In this document: one piece after another, positions 26,034-32,690 of the stretch
Layout: each line of letters begins with the position of its first letter
How positions within the stretch are numbered: position 1 is the first letter of the stretch
DNA from: Escherichia phage CMSTMSU
Reading direction: 5' to 3' (one strand)
Sequence record: MH494197.1
Length of the DNA stretch: 64,000 nt
The notes under the pieces: model-generated
What the model saw: the letters and a program-made list of their open reading frames with translations, nothing else
The model's database searches: none
What the model was told of the DNA's origin: nothing
Program-made: the position numbers and the translations under genes

Positions 26034-27447
26034 TTAGTACTTAGCTACGTTGACGCTTTTGTCAGCTTCATATTCGTAGTGTACAGTTTCGCCAAATGGT
26101 GCTTGTTTGTTAGGATTGCTGTGGATAACAAACAGTGTCTTACAGTAATCAGGATCACCCCATGACTGCCACGGCTCACCATCGGTAAACATAATAAGCT
26201 GTTTAGGCTTATAGTTGTCATGCTTCATATGAACCCATACTGCTTCAAAGTCAGTACCACCACCACCTTTCACTGGATATTCGAGAATCTTACTCTCTTC
26301 ACCAGTTTTGTAATCTTTCACAGTATAAACTTCAGTATCGAACGTCATGATACGGATTTTAAATTGTTTAAACTGCTTAGTGATACCCAGTACTTCACTG
26401 ATGAAATCACGGAGCATATCTTCAGAGATAGAACCGGATGCATCTAGTGCAATTGCAATATCAATATCATCATCTGGTTTCATACCGGGAAGATTGGATT
26501 CCCGTAGAATGAACCAGAACTACCAAAACCAGCACCCCATGAACGACGATTAGGATTTTGATAAGTTGCATCAGACTTCAACCAGCTACGCAGTGTGCGG
26601 TGAAGTTTAGAACGCCAGTCAATCTTAGGTTCTTTGAAGTTGTTAATCATACGTGCGATTTCAGCAGGAGTACCACCTGCACGAGCAGCATTCATCATTG
26701 CTGTTTTGAAATCATCCATATAATCACGTTTTTGTTTCTCACTTGAACCACCCTCTTGACCTTCTTGTGGAACGTCATGCTGGTCGATTGTTGTACCTTT
26801 GCCTTTACCATCTTTGATATCACCAAAAGTACCGCGTGATTTACCTTCACCCTCACCACTACCAGCCTGTGGATTTCCTTCACCTTCTCCGTCTTGATCC
26901 TGCTTATCTTCTTCTTCGAGAATATTATAAATCTCTTCAGCAGTCATACCATCGTACTTTTTATCGTACAGCCATTGGCTTTGGATTTTACCAATTTTAT
27001 CACGAACAAGAATCTGGTTAATTGCATAGTCAGCAGCACGGTTATAACGCTGCGGGTCACGCATACCACGACGCAAGAAGTGGTCATATGCACAGTGAAG
27101 AATTTCATGACAAATAACTGCAATCAGGTTTTCATCAGTCAAACCTTCTGTCATTTCTTTAAGTTGTTCTTCAGTTACTTCAGGATGTTTCTCACGAATT
27201 GCTTCTTCGTATGCTGACTTTTGGATTGGTCCTGAATACCCATGATGAATTCTACGTTGTAGAATAAATGCTTACCATCTACAGCCAAAGTACGACACCA
27301 TGTGTTGTTTGCAACTGGACGCAGACGAGAAGCCAGTACACCAAAGAATGGGAATGTTAGCATTAAAGATGTGCGAGCTAAGATCAGACGATCTTGACAT
27401 TCTTTCTGGAGAGCCGGAGTAACATCACTGAAACGTTTATCTGACAT
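26034..27447 (-). CDS. Two-domain protein: N-terminal HExxH zinc-metallopeptidase-like domain plus C-terminal von Willebrand factor A domain (DUF2201-like VWA partner of MoxR ATPases); frame broken twice
   Basis: CHEILHCAYDH (HExxH) in ORF 26480..27154; DIAIALDASGSIS (MIDAS DxSxS) and GGGTDF in ORF 26034..26483; N-terminus in ORF 27175..27447. Confidence 0.7.
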
Positions 27448-27520
27448 TTGTATTTCCTCGTTTAGTTAAGATAAAGAAGGATACCATGTGGTATCCTCCT
27501 TGTCAACACTCTTTTAATTA

Positions 27521-28846
27521 TTAACCAAGAGAGCGTGCTTTACGTACTAGGTCAGAGTACTTCATAACGAAGTCTTTAAACGCTGGTACATCTTTAATCG
27601 TAATCGCTACTTTATGAAGCGTGATGGTACGAATCGCCAGTACTGCCAGTTCTGCTTGAGTTGCAGAGAAGTTATGGTCTAGGAAGGTGATGAAGTTGTT
27701 GCACAGCTTACCCCAATCTTCCACTGGTAGACGTTGTTCTTGCTTCTCATTGTAGAGGTCGATAATTTTGTAAACCAGATTCAGAGTGATGAAGTAGTTC
27801 GCGGAAATATCGAGCGAAGCATCAATCTCTTTAATCTCACCCTGTAGGATGGACATGGTATCTGGTAGTTTAGCTACGTTATCAACATACTCGATGTATT
27901 CAGTTGCTACGCCTTCACCAACACGACCTGCAATCATCGCACGGAACACTTCTTTATCAATGTTCTTAACTTTCTTCAGATCTTCGTAGCGTGCTACTGC
28001 TTCCCATGAACGTGGAGAAGTACCACCACAGTGAGAAGGATCTTGTGGGCTAAGGGTGTTGAAGTGTTTAGCACCAGTGTTGTTGATGAACGCTACAGTT
28101 GCTGGGTTCAAACGCTTGCCAATCGCATAATCGTTAATCCAATCTTGATGATAAGGAATCATTTCGATGTGGGTCATACGGTCACGCAGTGGTGTAGCTA
28201 GAGAGAACGTTACACCGCCATCAGTTTCACGGTTACCTGCTGCGAGAATCAGTGCAGTCTTAGGTAGCTTCATCTCACCAACACAACGGTCGAGGATTAG
28301 CTGATAAGACGCTGCCTGTACAATCGGCATTGCAGAGTTGATTTCGTCAAACAGAATAACACCTTTCCAATCTGGAGACAGTTTCAGTACTTTAGGTGCT
28401 GCCCACACAACTGCTGTTTCAGCGATGTAATCTTGTGCACTAGCCAGTTCAGATTCAATCAGTTGCTTACCATCCATATCAAGGAACACTTTCTCTGGAA
28501 CTGGGATACCACGAAGGTCACTTGGTTCAATCTGAGACAAACGGAAATCGATAAAGTTAGTGTCTTGGTCGATTAGTTTGGCTTCAAACGCTGCCAGTTC
28601 ACGGCGAAGTTGATCAGCATTTTCAGTATCAGCTTCGATTTGTTGTTTCATGAACTCAATTTTGCCACGTTATCTTTACGCAGTGGGTAGTTCTCATCAG
28701 CGTATTGACGTGCGATAGCAGATTTACCGATACGGGCTACCCCAAATCATCAGGCTATCTTGAATCATGTCAGCCAGTGCCATTGCTTCTTTAGCTTTCT
28801 TAGGAGTCAGTTTTACGTTCAGGATATCGTTGTTTTGAGTAGACAT
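27521..28846 (-). CDS. MoxR-family AAA+ ATPase (CobS-like); N-terminus with two frame breaks
   Basis: Walker A GSP-IGKSAIARQYA reconstructed at 28700-28750, PSDLRG, Walker B ILFDEINSAMP and sensor AAGNR in track ORF 27521..28651. ATG at 28846 with RBS AAAGGAAA. Confidence 0.75.
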
Positions 28847-29013: not shown

Positions 29014-29041
29014 ATTATATCACATCGTTCAGGCTTGTCAA
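29014..29041 (-). promoter_or_regulatory. Consensus sigma70-type promoter (TTGACA-16 nt-TATAAT) reading toward the ATPase gene
   Basis: Reverse complement of 29036..29041 is TTGACA and of 29014..29019 is TATAAT; spacer 16 nt. Confidence 0.55.
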
Positions 29042-29104
29042 CAACTTTTTTATTTCTTTTCAATCTCACATCTTGTGATTTTGAAAACTTGCTTCGTGGT
29101 GGTC

Positions 29105-29132
29105 ATTATAACACATCATTCGGCGTTGTCAA
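29105..29132 (-). promoter_or_regulatory. Second consensus sigma70-type promoter, inside a ~75-bp direct repeat of the first
   Basis: Reverse complement gives TTGACA (29127..29132), a 16-nt spacer and TATAAT (29105..29110). Confidence 0.55.
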
Positions 29133-29535
29133 CATCTTTTTCTTTATTTTCGAAGCTACATGTGCATCGAAAATAACATTCTAAAATCATCACCACACAA
29201 TGTTAACTCTGTAACTATCATTTGCGTCGAGAGGTATATGTACTGCCCTTCTACATAGTAGGGTGAAGTACATATCCTATCAAGCGATGTAAAGATTATA
29301 GAACTTTTGAACTCTCTTTGCAAGGGGATTTTTGTAAATTCGTAAAGAATGTTTTCTTTACAAATTGTATATCCAAACTTGCTAAGTCTTAAACCACCGC
29401 CAGTTCTGAAATTTTCAAAATTGACATCAGAAGCATACGGTCTGTTAATTCAGCGTCTGATCCATGTACTTCTCTAACTTTTAAAAGTACATCGTTTTGA
29501 AATTCAGTACTGTTGTGTGGTTCAGGAATCATAAA

Positions 29536-30912
29536 TTACATCCCCACGAAACCCTGTCTTGCTGCATATGAAGGAGCATCTTTAACTTTATAGTCTTGGA
29601 CACCATCTTTACCAATTTTCGGACCCATATCTTTGGTTCCGAAGCAGCAATCAGTGGATTCATCAACTTCTTCAGTACTTTCATCATTATATCGAACATC
29701 CGATAAAATGTCACACGCTTTTGAAGCTTTTCTACGATTTCTTTTGATCTTCACCTGATTTAACCTTATCCACAATGTGGATAAGGCATTCGGTGATATC
29801 TTTAAGTAAATCGGTGGCAACAGCATCAGAAGGAGTCTCAACTGCAAAACTTTCTTCTTCAGTAGATTCTTCACTAGAAGTGATTTCATCTAATGCTTCA
29901 ACCAATTCACGATAATTATATCCCATCTTATTTGTCCCTAGAAATTGTTGATATTTCTTCTGGAGACTTTCGAAAATGTCTTCGACTTCTTCATCGCTTT
30001 CATCTTCTAGTTCTTCGTTACCTTCCACGGACTCATCACTCTCATTAACATTGAGTGGGTTGTCACCTAGAGCAGTACACGGAAACTTAGGTTCAAATTT
30101 GTGAACACGGTTCTCGTTACCGTCATTGTCATAGTACTCTGGTTCAGGACGATTGTCAACATCTTCATCAACGACACGTCTCCAGTAGAACTTGTTACCC
30201 TTGGTAATAACAACAAAGTGGTCACCTTCTACACCATTAGTTTTAGCTTGACCGTCACGAACAGCATCAGCTTCAGTGTTGTAAGGGCCAAAATCAGTAC
30301 TGTCACCTTGTTCTTCATCTTCAGAGATGGTTAGGTCTGGTAGGAAAGTGTTTTCTTCAACTTTAACTTCAGTATCTGGGTTACCTTCTACAGAATATTC
30401 ATCTTCTGGTTCGTCTTGAAGACCAGCTAGAGATAGCATACGACTGAAATCGAATTCTTCTTCGATGATTTCTTCTTCTTCCTCTTCTTCAACTGATTCT
30501 AGTTGAGGTTGACCGGAAAGATCTAAAGAAAACTCTTCTTCATCTGCAACACGGCTCTTCGAACTCTGCATCCATACTTACTTCTTCAGAATCACCACCA
30601 AAATCACCAGCTTCAGCAGATAGTGAGTCAGCAGCAACTTCTAATGGGTCTTCAACAGGTGCATCAATTGCACCATCCATTGAACCACCAACTTCTTCTT
30701 CTGCACCAGCACCAATTGAATCCATATCGAGTGGTGCGATTGGTGTAGAAAGGGTCATTGACCCATAGAAGGAACTGGAGCAGCAACAGGAGAAGCTTGA
30801 CGCTCGGCTTGACCAGCTAGTGCAAGCATACGAGATAGTGTTTCTAGATCTTCAGATTCTAGTCCTGCGATATCGATTTTAACTTGTGCTTCATTAATTT
30901 TTTAGCCATTTT
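29536..30912 (-). CDS. Highly acidic protein (~400 aa, Glu/Asp-rich) with a basic Cys-containing C-terminal tail; frame breaks
   Basis: Track ORFs 30540..30758, 29732..30571 and 29536..29889. Repeated SRML(A/S)LAG motif; runs of EEEEEE. Confidence 0.4.
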
Positions 30913-30946
30913 AAATAAATCCTTTTAGTTATCAATCATTCTTATT

Positions 30947-31380
30947 TAATGATTTTAAAATTTGCACTGTTTCATCCTTTTTACCAGATAGTAAAATGTC
31001 AGCAGCAATTAGAGAAACCTCATCACCACGCGTTAAGAGTACTGTAATTTTCTTAGCGTAAGGTGATTCTTTAATTCGTGAAGCCAATGATTGAACTTCA
31101 TCACCGGAGCAGGAACTTCAGGTTCTGGCTCTGATACAGGTTCTGGTTCTTTAGTAGGTTCAGCTTTTGGTTCAACTACATCAGTACTTGATACTTCAGC
31201 ATCTACTTTATCTTCAGGTTCTTCTTCTTTCTTATCAGCACGTTCTGCATCATAACGAGCAAGAATGTCATCAGCAGTTGATTTTGGAATCAATTTACCA
31301 TCAGCACTAATAAAGCGGTTACCACCGATATAAGAATACTCTGTGCCTTTCTTAGATTTTACTTTAGTTCCGATTTTCAT
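30947..31380 (-). CDS. Hypothetical protein with acidic/Pro-rich low-complexity linker
   Basis: ORF 31033..31380 (MKIGTKVKSKKGTEYSYIGGNRF...) plus a shifted C-terminal frame. Confidence 0.3.
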
Positions 31381-31399
31381 TGCACCAGAACTATTATGG

Positions 31400-32690
31400 C
31401 GAATTATATCACGTTGAGCAGCACGTTCAACACTTTTGCAGCACTAGAATTTAGTTGTTTTTAGTTTCTACATCAAACCATGCATTTTTTGTTTAATGTA
31501 TGTTTTACCTTTATTTGAAGTAATGCGGTAACCATGTGGAACCACAACAGATTCAGTTTCTTCAATCTCTTCATCTGCTTCATTAATGGATTCTTTTGTT
31601 GCGAATACTGGCTGTTTTACTGGTTGTTTAGGTTGTTCTGGCTTTTCACCTGAACCAAAACGTTGTTCACCTGATTCATGATCACCAGTTAGTGAAGGAA
31701 AATCACCGGGTTAGCCTTAACAAATTGTTGATATGCATTAAAGATTACATGTGCATTTTGTTCTGGAATTACAACATTACCATCATTATCACAAAATTCT
31801 TTACCATTCCATTCTGAACGAGTATTACCTTGTACTAATGTAGATTTAATTGGAATTAGTTTGTTTTTGGTGCTAATTGGCGAGCAATACGCATACCTTC
31901 ATCGGAAAGTTTACGTGTCATTGCTGGGTCAACTGGACGTCCAGATTTTGCATCAACAAAACGGTGATTTTAGGGATGAATTTAAATCCACTAACTTCCA
32001 TACCTGCTGGAATAGAAATATCATCAGCATATGGTGGAAGGATATAGAATTTTAGGGAGTTCCATTCTTTTGTAGAGTTTCTTTTGAAACATTATATACA
32101 CGGTGGTCATCTGCCATTAGTTCAGTGATAATTTCACTTTCAGTTAGTAGAATTCCATCTTTAGAATTGAAACGATTTTCACCAAGAAATGTACACTCTT
32201 TACCTTCAAGAATATATTTTTACCAATTTTATATTCACTAGAAGATAGATTGTGCTCAACAATCTGTTGTCGAGCACTTGCGTACATGGATGGGTATTTT
32301 TAGGGTCTACCATTAACATATTATTGTCGTTAAACCAGAAACCTTCTAGAAATACATATTTGCCACCAGTGTGAGAAGTATATACATATCCATTAGGTAC
32401 TGTGGTAGTTTCAGTACTGAAAAAATTATCCATGTGTTGATTCTCCTTAAGAAAGCATACGCAAAAGTTGTTCACGCTGCTCTGGACTTAATTTTTGTAG
32501 AGCATCAGGATACTAGAACCTTGTGCTTTTGGCTGTTCCTGTGGTGCTGGTTGTGGAGCATTGTCAGGTTGAGCTTGTGGTGCAGGACGTTGTTGTTCTT
32601 CACCTTTATCATCATCACGATAATCATTCATCAAGTCACGTGCTGCTGCCAATAGAGCAGAACCAACATCTTTAGGAGTAAAAGTACGAC
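31400..32690 (-). CDS. Fragmented coding region, product unknown (one or two genes with multiple frame breaks)
   Basis: Only short minus-strand ORF pieces (for example 32206..32475) that are collinear across frames; includes a Pro/Gln-rich low-complexity stretch. Confidence 0.2.

What the first reader, a model, noticed from the sequence alone, without database searches (positions are those of the whole stretch)
29536..30912. A ~400-aa extremely acidic protein with internal SRML(A/S)LAG repeats next to the early promoters
Long runs of Glu/Asp (EEEEEEIIEEEF; DESDESVEGNEELEDESDEEVED) give a strongly negative charge. Phage proteins of this type include DNA mimics that inhibit restriction enzymes or other DNA-binding defence proteins (as Ocr and ArdA do), and also scaffold or internal head proteins. 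The repeated SRMLxLAG motif and the basic Cys-containing C-terminal tail are not features I recognise.
Basis: inference. Interest (0 to 1): 0.5.

Follow-up and report, generated by a model that had tools for sequence, protein, structure and literature searches.

The report
Two acidic virion genes, mis-sequenced
The "400-aa acidic protein" is really two neighbouring, already-annotated virion-protein genes of a giant E. coli phage, broken and falsely joined by nanopore sequencing errors; their acidity and repeated motif are real, their function is unknown, and nothing supports a DNA-mimic role.

Summary
The window is the unpolished MinION/Canu draft of the Rak2-like jumbo coliphage CMSTMSU. Region 29536-30912 (minus strand) is not one ORF. 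It is read in three frames because of nine 1-2 nt deletions, most of them in homopolymer runs. In 60-72 related phage genomes the locus holds two separate genes. These are a 329-aa protein (121Q gp560, RaK2 gp050, CBB_213, phAPEC6 gp267c; PHROG 15988) and a 130-aa protein (121Q gp561, RaK2 gp051, CBB_214; PHROG 14971). A 1-nt deletion at 29938 fuses them artificially.

The extreme acidity is real (pI 4.05, net charge -73). So are the two RMLxLAG copies, which are conserved in 72 homologues. Orthologues were detected in purified virions of RaK2, CBB and phAPEC6. The genes lie in a tightly packed operon with tail-tube and head-completion genes. The two perfect sigma-70 promoters lie downstream and serve the MoxR ATPase gene.

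AlphaFold2 predicts a mostly disordered polyanion with four short helices and a 40-aa beta-alpha-beta-beta mini-domain. No fold or sequence match to Ocr or ArdA was found.

Best reading: late-expressed, virion-associated disordered acidic proteins, probably in the capsid interior or near the neck. The exact role is unresolved. Ordinary finding, low interest.

The parts
29928..30909 (-). Damaged copy of gene A (329 aa when intact; orthologue of 121Q gp560, RaK2 gp050, CBB_213 and phAPEC6 gp267c). It encodes a polyanionic, mostly disordered virion protein. ATG at 30909-30907; true TAA stop at 29930-29928.
   Evidence: coordinates and 7 frameshifting deletions; intact orthologues; PHROG 15988, E 8e-124; AF2.
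29536..29926 (-). Damaged copy of gene B (130 aa when intact; orthologue of 121Q gp561, RaK2 gp051 and CBB_214). It encodes an acidic protein with three predicted helices and a conserved C-terminal APSYAARQGFVG tail. ATG at 29926-29924; TAA at 29538-29536.
   Evidence: 2 frameshifting deletions, at 29745 and 29722; PHROG 14971, E 1.5e-44.
29732..30571 (-). Artefactual 279-aa ORF. It is a chimaera of the C-terminal ~213 aa of A and the N-terminal ~61 aa of B, created by the 1-nt deletion at 29938. It was deposited as a hypothetical protein of 'UNVERIFIED_ORG Escherichia phage CMSTMSU'.
   Evidence: ORF; P0006 has the identical sequence.
30812..30835 (-). Motif copy 1, S-R-M-L-A-L-A-G. It lies inside the highly conserved N-terminal helix (residues ~19-38).
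30422..30445 (-). Motif copy 2, S-R-M-L-S-L-A-G. It lies in a short helix (residues ~158-164) directly after the poly-Glu run.
30176..30295 (-). Conserved ~40-aa beta-alpha-beta-beta mini-domain (FGPY...FYWRR). This is the only part predicted with pLDDT above 90. Some homologues carry it in triplicate.
   Evidence: pLDDT 92-96 for residues 211-250; P0021 and P0050 have three copies.
29156..29532 (-). Damaged copy of the next gene (121Q gp562-like, 125 aa). It is the last gene of the tightly packed operon and has not been reported in virions.
29014..29132 (-). Two tandem perfect sigma-70 promoters (TTGACA-N16-TGnTATAAT). These are the 'early promoters' of the finding. They lie downstream of genes A, B and gp562 and upstream of the MoxR ATPase gene.
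   Evidence: 12/12 matches with an extended -10; the only two in the window.
27521..28846 (-). MoxR-type AAA+ ATPase gene, also frameshifted in the window. It is followed by a DUF2201 metallopeptidase-vWA gene (26480-27447). Others have proposed this pair as a virion-assembly and processing chaperone system.
   Evidence: PMC7824862.

Best explanation
The span holds two adjacent genes of a Rak2-like (Asteriusvirus) jumbo coliphage. They appear broken and falsely fused because the window comes from an unpolished nanopore assembly with homopolymer deletions.

Gene A encodes a 329-aa polyanion (net charge about -73) that is mostly intrinsically disordered. It has four conserved islands:
- an N-terminal helix carrying RMLALAG;
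- a second RMLSLAG helix;
- a ~40-aa beta-alpha-beta-beta mini-domain preceded by LPDL(S/T)(L/I)xE;
- a C-terminal helix.

Gene B encodes a 130-aa acidic three-helix protein with a conserved C-terminal tail.

Both genes are transcribed late, as part of the operon tail-tube / gp4-like head-completion / gp556-gp562. Both proteins are incorporated at low copy number into virions.

Most likely mechanism (inferred): the short conserved helices dock the proteins onto a structural partner inside the capsid or at the portal/neck. The long acidic disordered segments act as a DNA-excluding, DNA-like spacer during head completion or genome ejection. Possibly the proteins are trimmed at T4-type (L/I)-x-E sites or by the neighbouring metallopeptidase-vWA/MoxR system.

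Sub-confidences: two genes plus sequencing artefact, 0.97; virion-associated late proteins, 0.85; capsid-interior or neck location with docking helices, about 0.35.
For: ARTEFACT
- Ten deletions and no insertions in 1.7 kb against a 99%-identical relative, nine of them inside the finding's span and most in homopolymers.
- 214 indels in 41.7 kb. 41 of 47 genes are frameshifted, including tail sheath and tail tube.
- The 279-aa ORF is identical to a protein of 'UNVERIFIED_ORG phage CMSTMSU'.
- That genome was MinION + Albacore 2.1.3 + Canu only (PMC6256653).

TWO GENES
- Separate adjacent CDSs in vB_Ec-M-J, 121Q, Turkey3, phAPEC6, RaK2 and CBB.
- One match per genome in 72 (gene A) and 60 (gene B) phage records.
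- The same gene order in a divergent metagenomic contig.

VIRION ASSOCIATION (MS in relatives)
- RaK2 gp050: 1 peptide, 5.3% coverage. RaK2 gp051: 2 peptides.
- CBB_213: 5 peptides, 18.9% coverage. CBB_214: 1 peptide.
- phAPEC6 gp267c: 1 peptide, 4.9% coverage.
- The RaK2 and phAPEC6 coverages equal the only 16-residue fully tryptic peptide, residues 12-27.

LATE OPERON
- Intergenic gaps of 0-30 nt from tube2 to gp562.
- ATAAATA motifs 35-57 nt upstream of sheath, tube1, gp557 and gp558, matching the late-promoter motif proposed for CBB.
- The sigma-70 promoters lie downstream.

ARCHITECTURE
- AF2 and the alignments.

NECK/HEAD-COMPLETION ASSOCIATION
- The gene neighbourhood.
- Distant homologues carrying the N-terminal module lie next to T4 gp15- and gp13-like genes.
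Against: - The location within the virion is not shown by any data. MS support for gene A is a single peptide in two of the three phages, and RaK2's authors did not call gp050 a virion protein on that basis.
- A polyanion is electrostatically awkward inside a DNA-filled capsid.
- The genes are not in the head module (MCP / scaffold / protease / portal).
- The (L/I)xE motifs are expected by chance in a Glu-rich protein. No cleavage data exist.
- The phiKZ internal-head-protein Pfam hit of gene B is below threshold and is seen in only 5 of 14 members.
- Late timing is inferred from operon structure, not measured.
Confidence: 0.6

Rival explanations
1. Morphogenetic (scaffold/core-like or chaperone-substrate) proteins. 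A and B act during prohead or neck assembly and are largely removed or degraded, either by the T4 gp21-like prohead protease or by the adjacent MoxR / metallopeptidase-vWA system. Only traces or fragments remain in mature virions.
For: - Peptide counts are very low, similar to those of the annotated scaffolding protein and prohead protease in phAPEC6 (2 peptides each).
- Acidic, partly helical, partly disordered proteins are typical of phage scaffolds (general knowledge).
- (L/I)xE motifs are conserved at residues 5-7, ~167-169, 198-200 and 315-317.
- The MoxR and metallopeptidase-vWA genes, proposed to process structural proteins, lie immediately downstream (PMC7824862).
Against: - A dedicated scaffolding protein and core proteins are already annotated in the head module.
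- The genes lie in the tail-tube/head-completion operon.
- The MoxR/vWA genes are behind strong sigma-70 (presumably early) promoters, so their timing may differ.
- The proteins are detected in three independent virion preparations.
Confidence: 0.25
2. One reading: an acidic DNA mimic that inhibits host DNA-binding defence proteins such as type I R-M or BREX. Given the virion data, it could be delivered by co-injection with the genome.
For: - Extreme negative charge.
- Presence in virions would allow delivery before any transcription, as with P1 DarA/B or T4 IPI* (general knowledge).
- Unfolded acidic chains could pass through the tail channel.
Against: - There is no sequence match or fold match to any known DNA mimic.
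- AF2 predicts disorder, not a rigid array of carboxylates.
- The genes are not in the early region and not behind the early promoters.
- The family is strictly syntenic with structural genes and single-copy in all Rak2-like phages. That is the pattern of a core structural gene, not of a variable anti-defence gene.
Confidence: 0.07
3. The frameshifts are biologically real. The locus would then be a pseudogenised gene, or one expressed by programmed frameshifting, giving one long product or several small ones.
For: The window sequence taken at face value. The first shift lies in an A-run, which could be slippery.
Against: - The same type of deletion hits 41 of 47 neighbouring genes, including essential tail sheath and tail tube genes.
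- 102 of 148 single-base deletions lie in runs of 3 or more bases.
- Nine close relatives have intact genes.
- The assembly method is known to be error-prone.
Confidence: 0.02

Closest known systems
RaK2 gp050 / 121Q gp560 / CBB_213 / phAPEC6 gp267c (PHROG 15988, 'virion structural protein'), and RaK2 gp051 / 121Q gp561 / CBB_214 (PHROG 14971)
   Same: These are direct orthologues. They are 99-100% identical to Turkey3 and vB_Ec-M-J, 77% to 121Q and 36-41% to RaK2 and CBB. Gene order, length, motifs and acidity are the same.
   Different: The only difference is that the window copy is corrupted by sequencing errors. The function of the family is unknown in all members.
T4 prohead core and internal proteins (gp22, gp67, gp68, IPI-III; processed by gp21 at L/I-x-E)
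   Same: They are acidic (gp22, gp67, gp68) and partly unstructured. They belong to a phage with a T4-type protease, MCP and portal. (L/I)xE motifs are conserved, including an I-N-E-A at residues 5-8 that resembles T4 N-terminal cleavage sites (recalled from memory; a lead only).
   Different: There is no sequence homology. The genes are not in the head-gene cluster. The N-terminal region appears to be retained in virions. No processing data exist.
phiKZ inner-body / internal head proteins (Pfam PF12699)
   Same: phAPEC6, a close relative, has a bubblegram-visible inner body whose components are unidentified (PMC7247149). Gene B gives weak hits to PF12699.
   Different: The hits are 18 bits against a 27-bit cut-off, occur in 5 of 14 members, and cover 70 of 387 profile positions. 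Gene A has no hit. Peptide counts are far too low for a major inner-body component.
Ocr (T7 gp0.3) and ArdA DNA mimics
   Same: High density of Asp and Glu; phage origin.
   Different: Ocr and ArdA are compact, folded, early-expressed proteins that are not part of the virion. This protein is predicted to be disordered, is encoded in a late operon, is found in virions, and shows no sequence or fold similarity.

Membership tests
PHROG 15988 / 14971 (Rak2-like 'virion structural proteins') | Significant full-length profile match | tested here: met
   E 8e-124 over residues 1-329 (gene A) and E 1.5e-44 over residues 3-130 (gene B), using the intact Turkey3 orthologues. These are 99% identical in DNA to the window.
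PHROG 15988 / 14971 (Rak2-like 'virion structural proteins') | Conserved synteny: tail tube, gp4-like head completion, four small genes, A, B, gp562, MoxR | tested here: met
PHROG 15988 / 14971 (Rak2-like 'virion structural proteins') | Presence in purified virions | not testable with these tools
   Literature on orthologues only. RaK2 Table S3, CBB table and phAPEC6 Table 1. Support is 1-5 peptides.
Ocr/ArdA-type DNA mimics | Compact fold displaying carboxylates in a B-DNA-like pattern | tested here: not met
   AF2 gives mean pLDDT 60, with 128 of 330 residues below 50 and only a 40-aa ordered mini-domain. Foldseek against PDB and BFVD gives no significant hit other than the protein's own family.
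Ocr/ArdA-type DNA mimics | Sequence relationship to a known mimic | tested here: not met
   A profile search of all PDB chains gives nothing below E = 0.8. Pfam gives no family.
Ocr/ArdA-type DNA mimics | Early expression ahead of genome exposure | tested here: not met
   The genes lie inside a tightly packed structural operon. The perfect sigma-70 promoters lie downstream of it. Timing is inferred, not measured.
Ocr/ArdA-type DNA mimics | Inhibition of type I R-M or other DNA-binding defences | not testable with these tools
   Needs plaque or restriction assays.
phiKZ_IP (PF12699) internal head proteins | Pfam match above the gathering score | tested here: not met
   Gene B scores 18.6 bits against a 27-bit cut-off (E 1.2e-3) and covers profile positions 277-348 of 387. 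Only 5 of 14 family members hit. Gene A has no hit.
T4-type prohead core proteins processed by a gp21-like protease | Conserved (L/I)-x-E cleavage motifs | tested here: inconclusive
   Five alignment columns carry the motif in 57-100% of the 72 sequences. About 6 such motifs are expected by chance in a protein with this composition.
T4-type prohead core proteins processed by a gp21-like protease | Gene located in the portal / core / protease / scaffold / MCP cluster | tested here: not met
   In phAPEC6 the head cluster is gp225c-gp230c, whereas this gene is gp267c. Its neighbours are tail-tube and head-completion genes.
Programmed frameshift / genuine pseudogene | Frame changes specific to this gene and reproducible in relatives | tested here: not met
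   41 of 47 neighbouring genes carry similar indels. None of these indels is present in nine relatives that are 98-99% identical.

The most novel reading that the evidence does not exclude
The most novel reading not excluded is this. Gene A is a packaged, intrinsically disordered polyanion, a protein 'DNA surrogate'. Its RMLxLAG helices anchor it at the portal or inner body of the giant capsid. It is threaded through the tail ahead of or together with the 350-kb genome. It would then either organise spooling and ejection of the genome or act in the cell as a decoy for DNA-binding defences. The neighbouring MoxR / metallopeptidase-vWA machine might load or trim it through the affinity of the vWA MIDAS site for acidic residues.
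Probability: 0.1. Interest if true: 0.6.

Novelty: already known. Interest (0 to 1): 0.15.

Why it matters
As written, the finding does not matter. It is an error-corrupted copy of two genes that are already annotated as virion structural proteins in many Rak2-like jumbo phages.

It has two modest uses:
1. It is a caution. This window is an unpolished nanopore draft, so any ORF-level observation in it needs to be checked against relatives.
2. The gene family itself is uncharacterised. It is an extremely acidic, mostly disordered virion protein with two conserved RMLxLAG helices and a tiny repeatable domain. It could be a candidate when the unidentified inner-body or ejection proteins of these giant phages are eventually sought.

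Tried and rejected
- Pfam on both proteins, on 72 + 14 family members, on isolated modules and on distant homologues. The only results were sub-threshold STAS_2 hits (22 of 72 members, best E 0.01, on the N-terminal 30 aa; judged a motif-level coincidence) and sub-threshold phiKZ_IP hits.
- Sequence and profile searches of all PDB chains: nothing.
- Foldseek of the AF2 models against PDB and BFVD. The only hits were the protein's own family. The remaining hits (for example rhabdovirus phosphoproteins) are non-significant matches between disordered acidic chains.
- A profile search of 1.84 billion representative proteins returned only 87 proteins. This is a narrow family with no link to a characterised one.
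- A search for other proteins carrying the N-terminal module in the same genomes found none. It is single-copy in 72 records, so it is not a shared capsid-targeting signal.
- The supplementary files of the proteome papers were searched for the identified peptides. They are not held. Only coverage arithmetic could be used.
- Thomas et al. 2012 on phiKZ inner-body proteolysis is not held in the library.
- No transcriptome of a Rak2-like coliphage was found.
- Programmed frameshifting and genuine pseudogenisation were rejected because the indels are genome-wide.

Full report
WHAT IS IN THE WINDOW

On the minus strand of 29536-30912 there is no single long ORF. ORF listing and three-frame translation show pieces in all three frames:
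- MAKKLMK... stops after 16 codons.
- KINEAQVKIDIAGLESEDLETLSRMLALAGQAER...SMGQ* is in a second frame.
- MTLSTPIAPLD...EEPCCR* is in a third frame.
- A 279-aa ORF runs from 29732 to 30571.
- The C-terminal ...RQGFVGM* is in another frame again.

WHY IT IS BROKEN

Megablast finds 34 jumbo coliphage and Salmonella phage genomes of the 121Q/PBECO4 (Asteriusvirus) group. Nine of them are 98-99% identical. Against vB_Ec-M-J, the 1.7-kb query has 9 mismatches and 10 gaps. Every gap is a deletion in the window, and most are in homopolymer runs (A7 to A6, G4 to G3, C4 to C3, A5 to A4, T5 to T4).

Over 41.7 kb aligned to phage Turkey3 there are 214 indels. 148 are single-base deletions, 102 of them in runs of 3 or more bases. 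41 of 47 annotated genes carry at least one frameshifting indel, including tail sheath (6) and tail tube. A viable phage cannot carry these.

The artefactual 279-aa ORF is identical to a database protein named 'UNVERIFIED_ORG: hypothetical protein [Escherichia phage CMSTMSU]', from a 386,442-bp contig. The genome announcement for CMSTMSU describes MinION R9.4 reads, Albacore 2.1.3 and a Canu assembly with no polishing (PMC6256653). The fragmentation is therefore a sequencing artefact.

WHAT THE LOCUS REALLY ENCODES

In every relative examined the span holds two separate, adjacent genes. The relatives checked were vB_Ec-M-J, 121Q, Turkey3, phAPEC6, RaK2 and CBB.
- Gene A is 326-329 aa in Asteriusvirus: 121Q gp560, phAPEC6 gp267c, RaK2 gp050, CBB_213.
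- Gene B is 130-131 aa: 121Q gp561, phAPEC6 gp266c, RaK2 gp051, CBB_214.

In window coordinates, A runs 30909-29928 and B runs 29926-29536. The 1-nt deletion at 29938 removes A's stop from the frame and reads into B. This is what made the locus look like one protein.

tblastn finds exactly one copy per genome: 72 phage records for A and 60 for B, all of them Rak2-like jumbo phages. The pair keeps its place in a divergent metagenomic contig with the order sheath, three tube paralogues, TnsA-like gp4, five small genes, A, B, gp562-like. Both match PHROGs annotated 'virion structural protein' (15988 at E 8e-124; 14971 at E 1.5e-44). Neither has a Pfam family.

PROPERTIES OF THE INTACT PROTEINS

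Gene A has 93 Asp+Glu and 20 Lys+Arg (pI 4.05). It is the most acidic of the 47 proteins encoded nearby.

An alignment of 72 homologues shows conserved islands separated by acidic linkers that vary in length and have low complexity:
- Residues 1-36, M-KKINEA-VKID--GLES-DLETLSRMLALAGQAE. This is the best conserved part, 70-75% identical even in RaK2 and CBB, where the whole protein is 36-41% identical.
- A short DFG-containing segment.
- FDMxRMSSLAGIxE, the second motif copy.
- LPDL(S/T)(L/I)xE(D).
- FGPF-SE-EAV-DGQ-KTNG-EGD-F-V--KGN-FYWKR.
- H-YK-K-PGTALGDNPL.
- A C-terminal (D/E)E-VE-I-ES---KY-KF-G.

The RM..LAG pattern occurs only twice in the six-frame translation of the 64-kb window, both times in this gene. 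The repeat is therefore real, specific and conserved.

AlphaFold2 with this alignment gives mean pLDDT 60 and pTM 0.27, with 128 of 330 residues below pLDDT 50. The predicted elements are helices at 19-38, 90-99, 158-164 and 312-327, and one small beta-alpha-beta-beta unit at 210-248 with pLDDT 92-96. Some homologues carry this unit three times (P0021, P0050).

Gene B is predicted as three helices (5-20, 34-56, 61-83), an acidic disordered stretch and a conserved tail YGT--M-P...APSYAARQGFVG.

Foldseek against PDB and BFVD, and sequence and profile searches of PDB, return nothing significant outside the family itself. A profile search of 1.84 billion representative proteins finds only 87 members.

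EVIDENCE FOR VIRION ASSOCIATION

Three independent virion proteomes of relatives contain these proteins.

| Phage | Gene A orthologue | Gene B orthologue | Source |
|---|---|---|---|
| RaK2 | gp050: 1 peptide, 5.3% | gp051: 2 peptides, 18.7% | PMC3622015 Table S3; |
| CBB | CBB_213: 5 peptides, 18.9% | CBB_214: 1 peptide, 15.4% | PMC5259590; |
| phAPEC6 | gp267c: 1 peptide, 4.9% | gp266c: not detected | PMC7247149 Table 1; |

The low peptide counts are partly explained by composition. A has a 117-residue stretch with no tryptic site.

The coverages in RaK2 (5.3% of 304 aa) and phAPEC6 (4.9% of 326 aa) both equal 16 residues. In each protein the only fully tryptic 16-mer is residues 12-27, just ahead of the first motif. 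This is arithmetic inference, not published peptide data. It suggests that the N-terminal module is present in mature particles.

GENOMIC CONTEXT AND TIMING

From the second tail-tube paralogue to gp562 the intergenic gaps are 0-30 nt. Pfam and PHROGs confirm the neighbours as tail tube x3, TnsA-like gp4 head closure, then four small proteins of unknown function. Three of these are virion proteins in RaK2.

ATAAATA motifs lie 35-57 nt upstream of sheath, tube1, gp557 and gp558. This is the late-promoter-like motif proposed for CBB and GAP32 structural genes. Their number is what chance would give, and only their placement is suggestive.

The 'early promoters' are two tandem perfect TTGACA-N16-TGnTATAAT sites. 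They are the only two in the window. They lie in the 318-nt gap after gp562 and read into the MoxR ATPase gene. They do not drive A or B.

Downstream are a MoxR AAA+ ATPase and a DUF2201 metallopeptidase-vWA protein. Iyer et al. proposed that this pair aids virion assembly and proteolytic processing in this phage group (PMC7824862).

The N-terminal module of A also occurs embedded in larger, otherwise unrelated acidic proteins. In two metagenomic contigs these lie next to T4 gp15-like and gp13-like neck/tail-completion genes. This is a second, independent association with head-tail joining genes.

INTERPRETATION

Shown:
- The locus is two genes, and the breaks are a sequencing artefact.
- The family is conserved, single-copy and syntenic.
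- The acidity and the repeated motif are real.
- The protein is predicted to be disordered.
- Orthologues are detected in virions.
- The sigma-70 promoters lie downstream.

Inferred:
- The genes are expressed late.
- The conserved helices act as docking elements.
- The proteins sit in the capsid interior or near the portal/neck.

I favour a packaged, low-copy, polyanionic disordered protein pair acting in head completion or genome ejection. The reasons are the gene neighbourhood, the virion data, and the fact that an unfolded acidic chain is the kind of protein that can sit beside DNA, or travel with it, through a negatively charged channel.

The main rival is an assembly (scaffold- or chaperone-substrate-like) role, with most of the protein removed before maturation. 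The trace-level peptide counts resemble those of the annotated scaffold and protease in phAPEC6.

phAPEC6 has an inner body whose components are unknown. Gene B's weak phiKZ_IP hits are below threshold, and the abundance looks too low for a major inner-body protein.

The DNA-mimic idea is not excluded in principle, because a packaged acidic protein could be injected. It fails every testable criterion of the Ocr/ArdA class.

VERDICT

It is partly an artefact: there is no single ORF. The DNA-mimic interpretation is unsupported, and the virion-protein alternative is supported by published proteomics of orthologues. The genes are already known and annotated in many genomes, although their function remains uncharacterised. 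Low interest.

Noticed in passing
whole window; quantified for 9456-50982: The window is an unpolished nanopore draft (phage CMSTMSU). It has 214 indels per 41.7 kb against the closest relative, mostly homopolymer deletions. 41 of 47 genes are frameshifted. It also has substitution errors, for example Cys in place of an invariant Gly in FPGTALG. Any ORF-based finding from this window needs checking against relatives.
   Followed up: yes
window 29014-29132 (- strand): Two tandem perfect sigma-70 promoters with an extended -10 (TTGACA-N16-TGnTATAAT). They are the only perfect ones in the 64 kb. They drive the MoxR ATPase gene from within an otherwise late structural region.
   Followed up: partly
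window 26480-28846 (- strand): A MoxR AAA+ ATPase plus a DUF2201 metallopeptidase-vWA gene pair, both split by frameshifts in the window. The ATPase was detected in phAPEC6 virions (6 peptides) but not in RaK2 virions. Iyer et al. proposed the pair as a virion-assembly and processing chaperone.
   Followed up: partly
window ~30932-32475 (- strand); intact in L003 18658-20169: The upstream 503-aa virion protein (121Q gp559-like) contains an internal duplication of a ~95-aa module (34% identity, E 7e-16). It has its own acidic Pro/Glu-rich linker.
   Followed up: partly
L008 1960-3810; L010 2628-4781: The ~40-aa N-terminal module of gene A (KINEAQ...GLE..D...LSQMLSLAGQAE) is embedded at residues ~115-150 of larger, otherwise unrelated acidic proteins. 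These are encoded next to T4 gp15-like and gp13-like neck genes in metagenomic phage contigs.
   Followed up: partly
L003 10751, 13817, 17527, 18049: ATAAATA (T4 late-promoter-like) motifs lie 35-57 nt upstream of the sheath, tube1, gp557 and gp558 start codons. The total count is no more than chance, but the placement is consistent.
   Followed up: partly
homologues P0021 and P0050: Some family members carry the 40-aa beta-alpha-beta-beta mini-domain (GPF..E..A......G..F.V....G.YW.R) in three tandem copies. It therefore behaves as an independent repeatable unit with no Pfam family.
   Followed up: no
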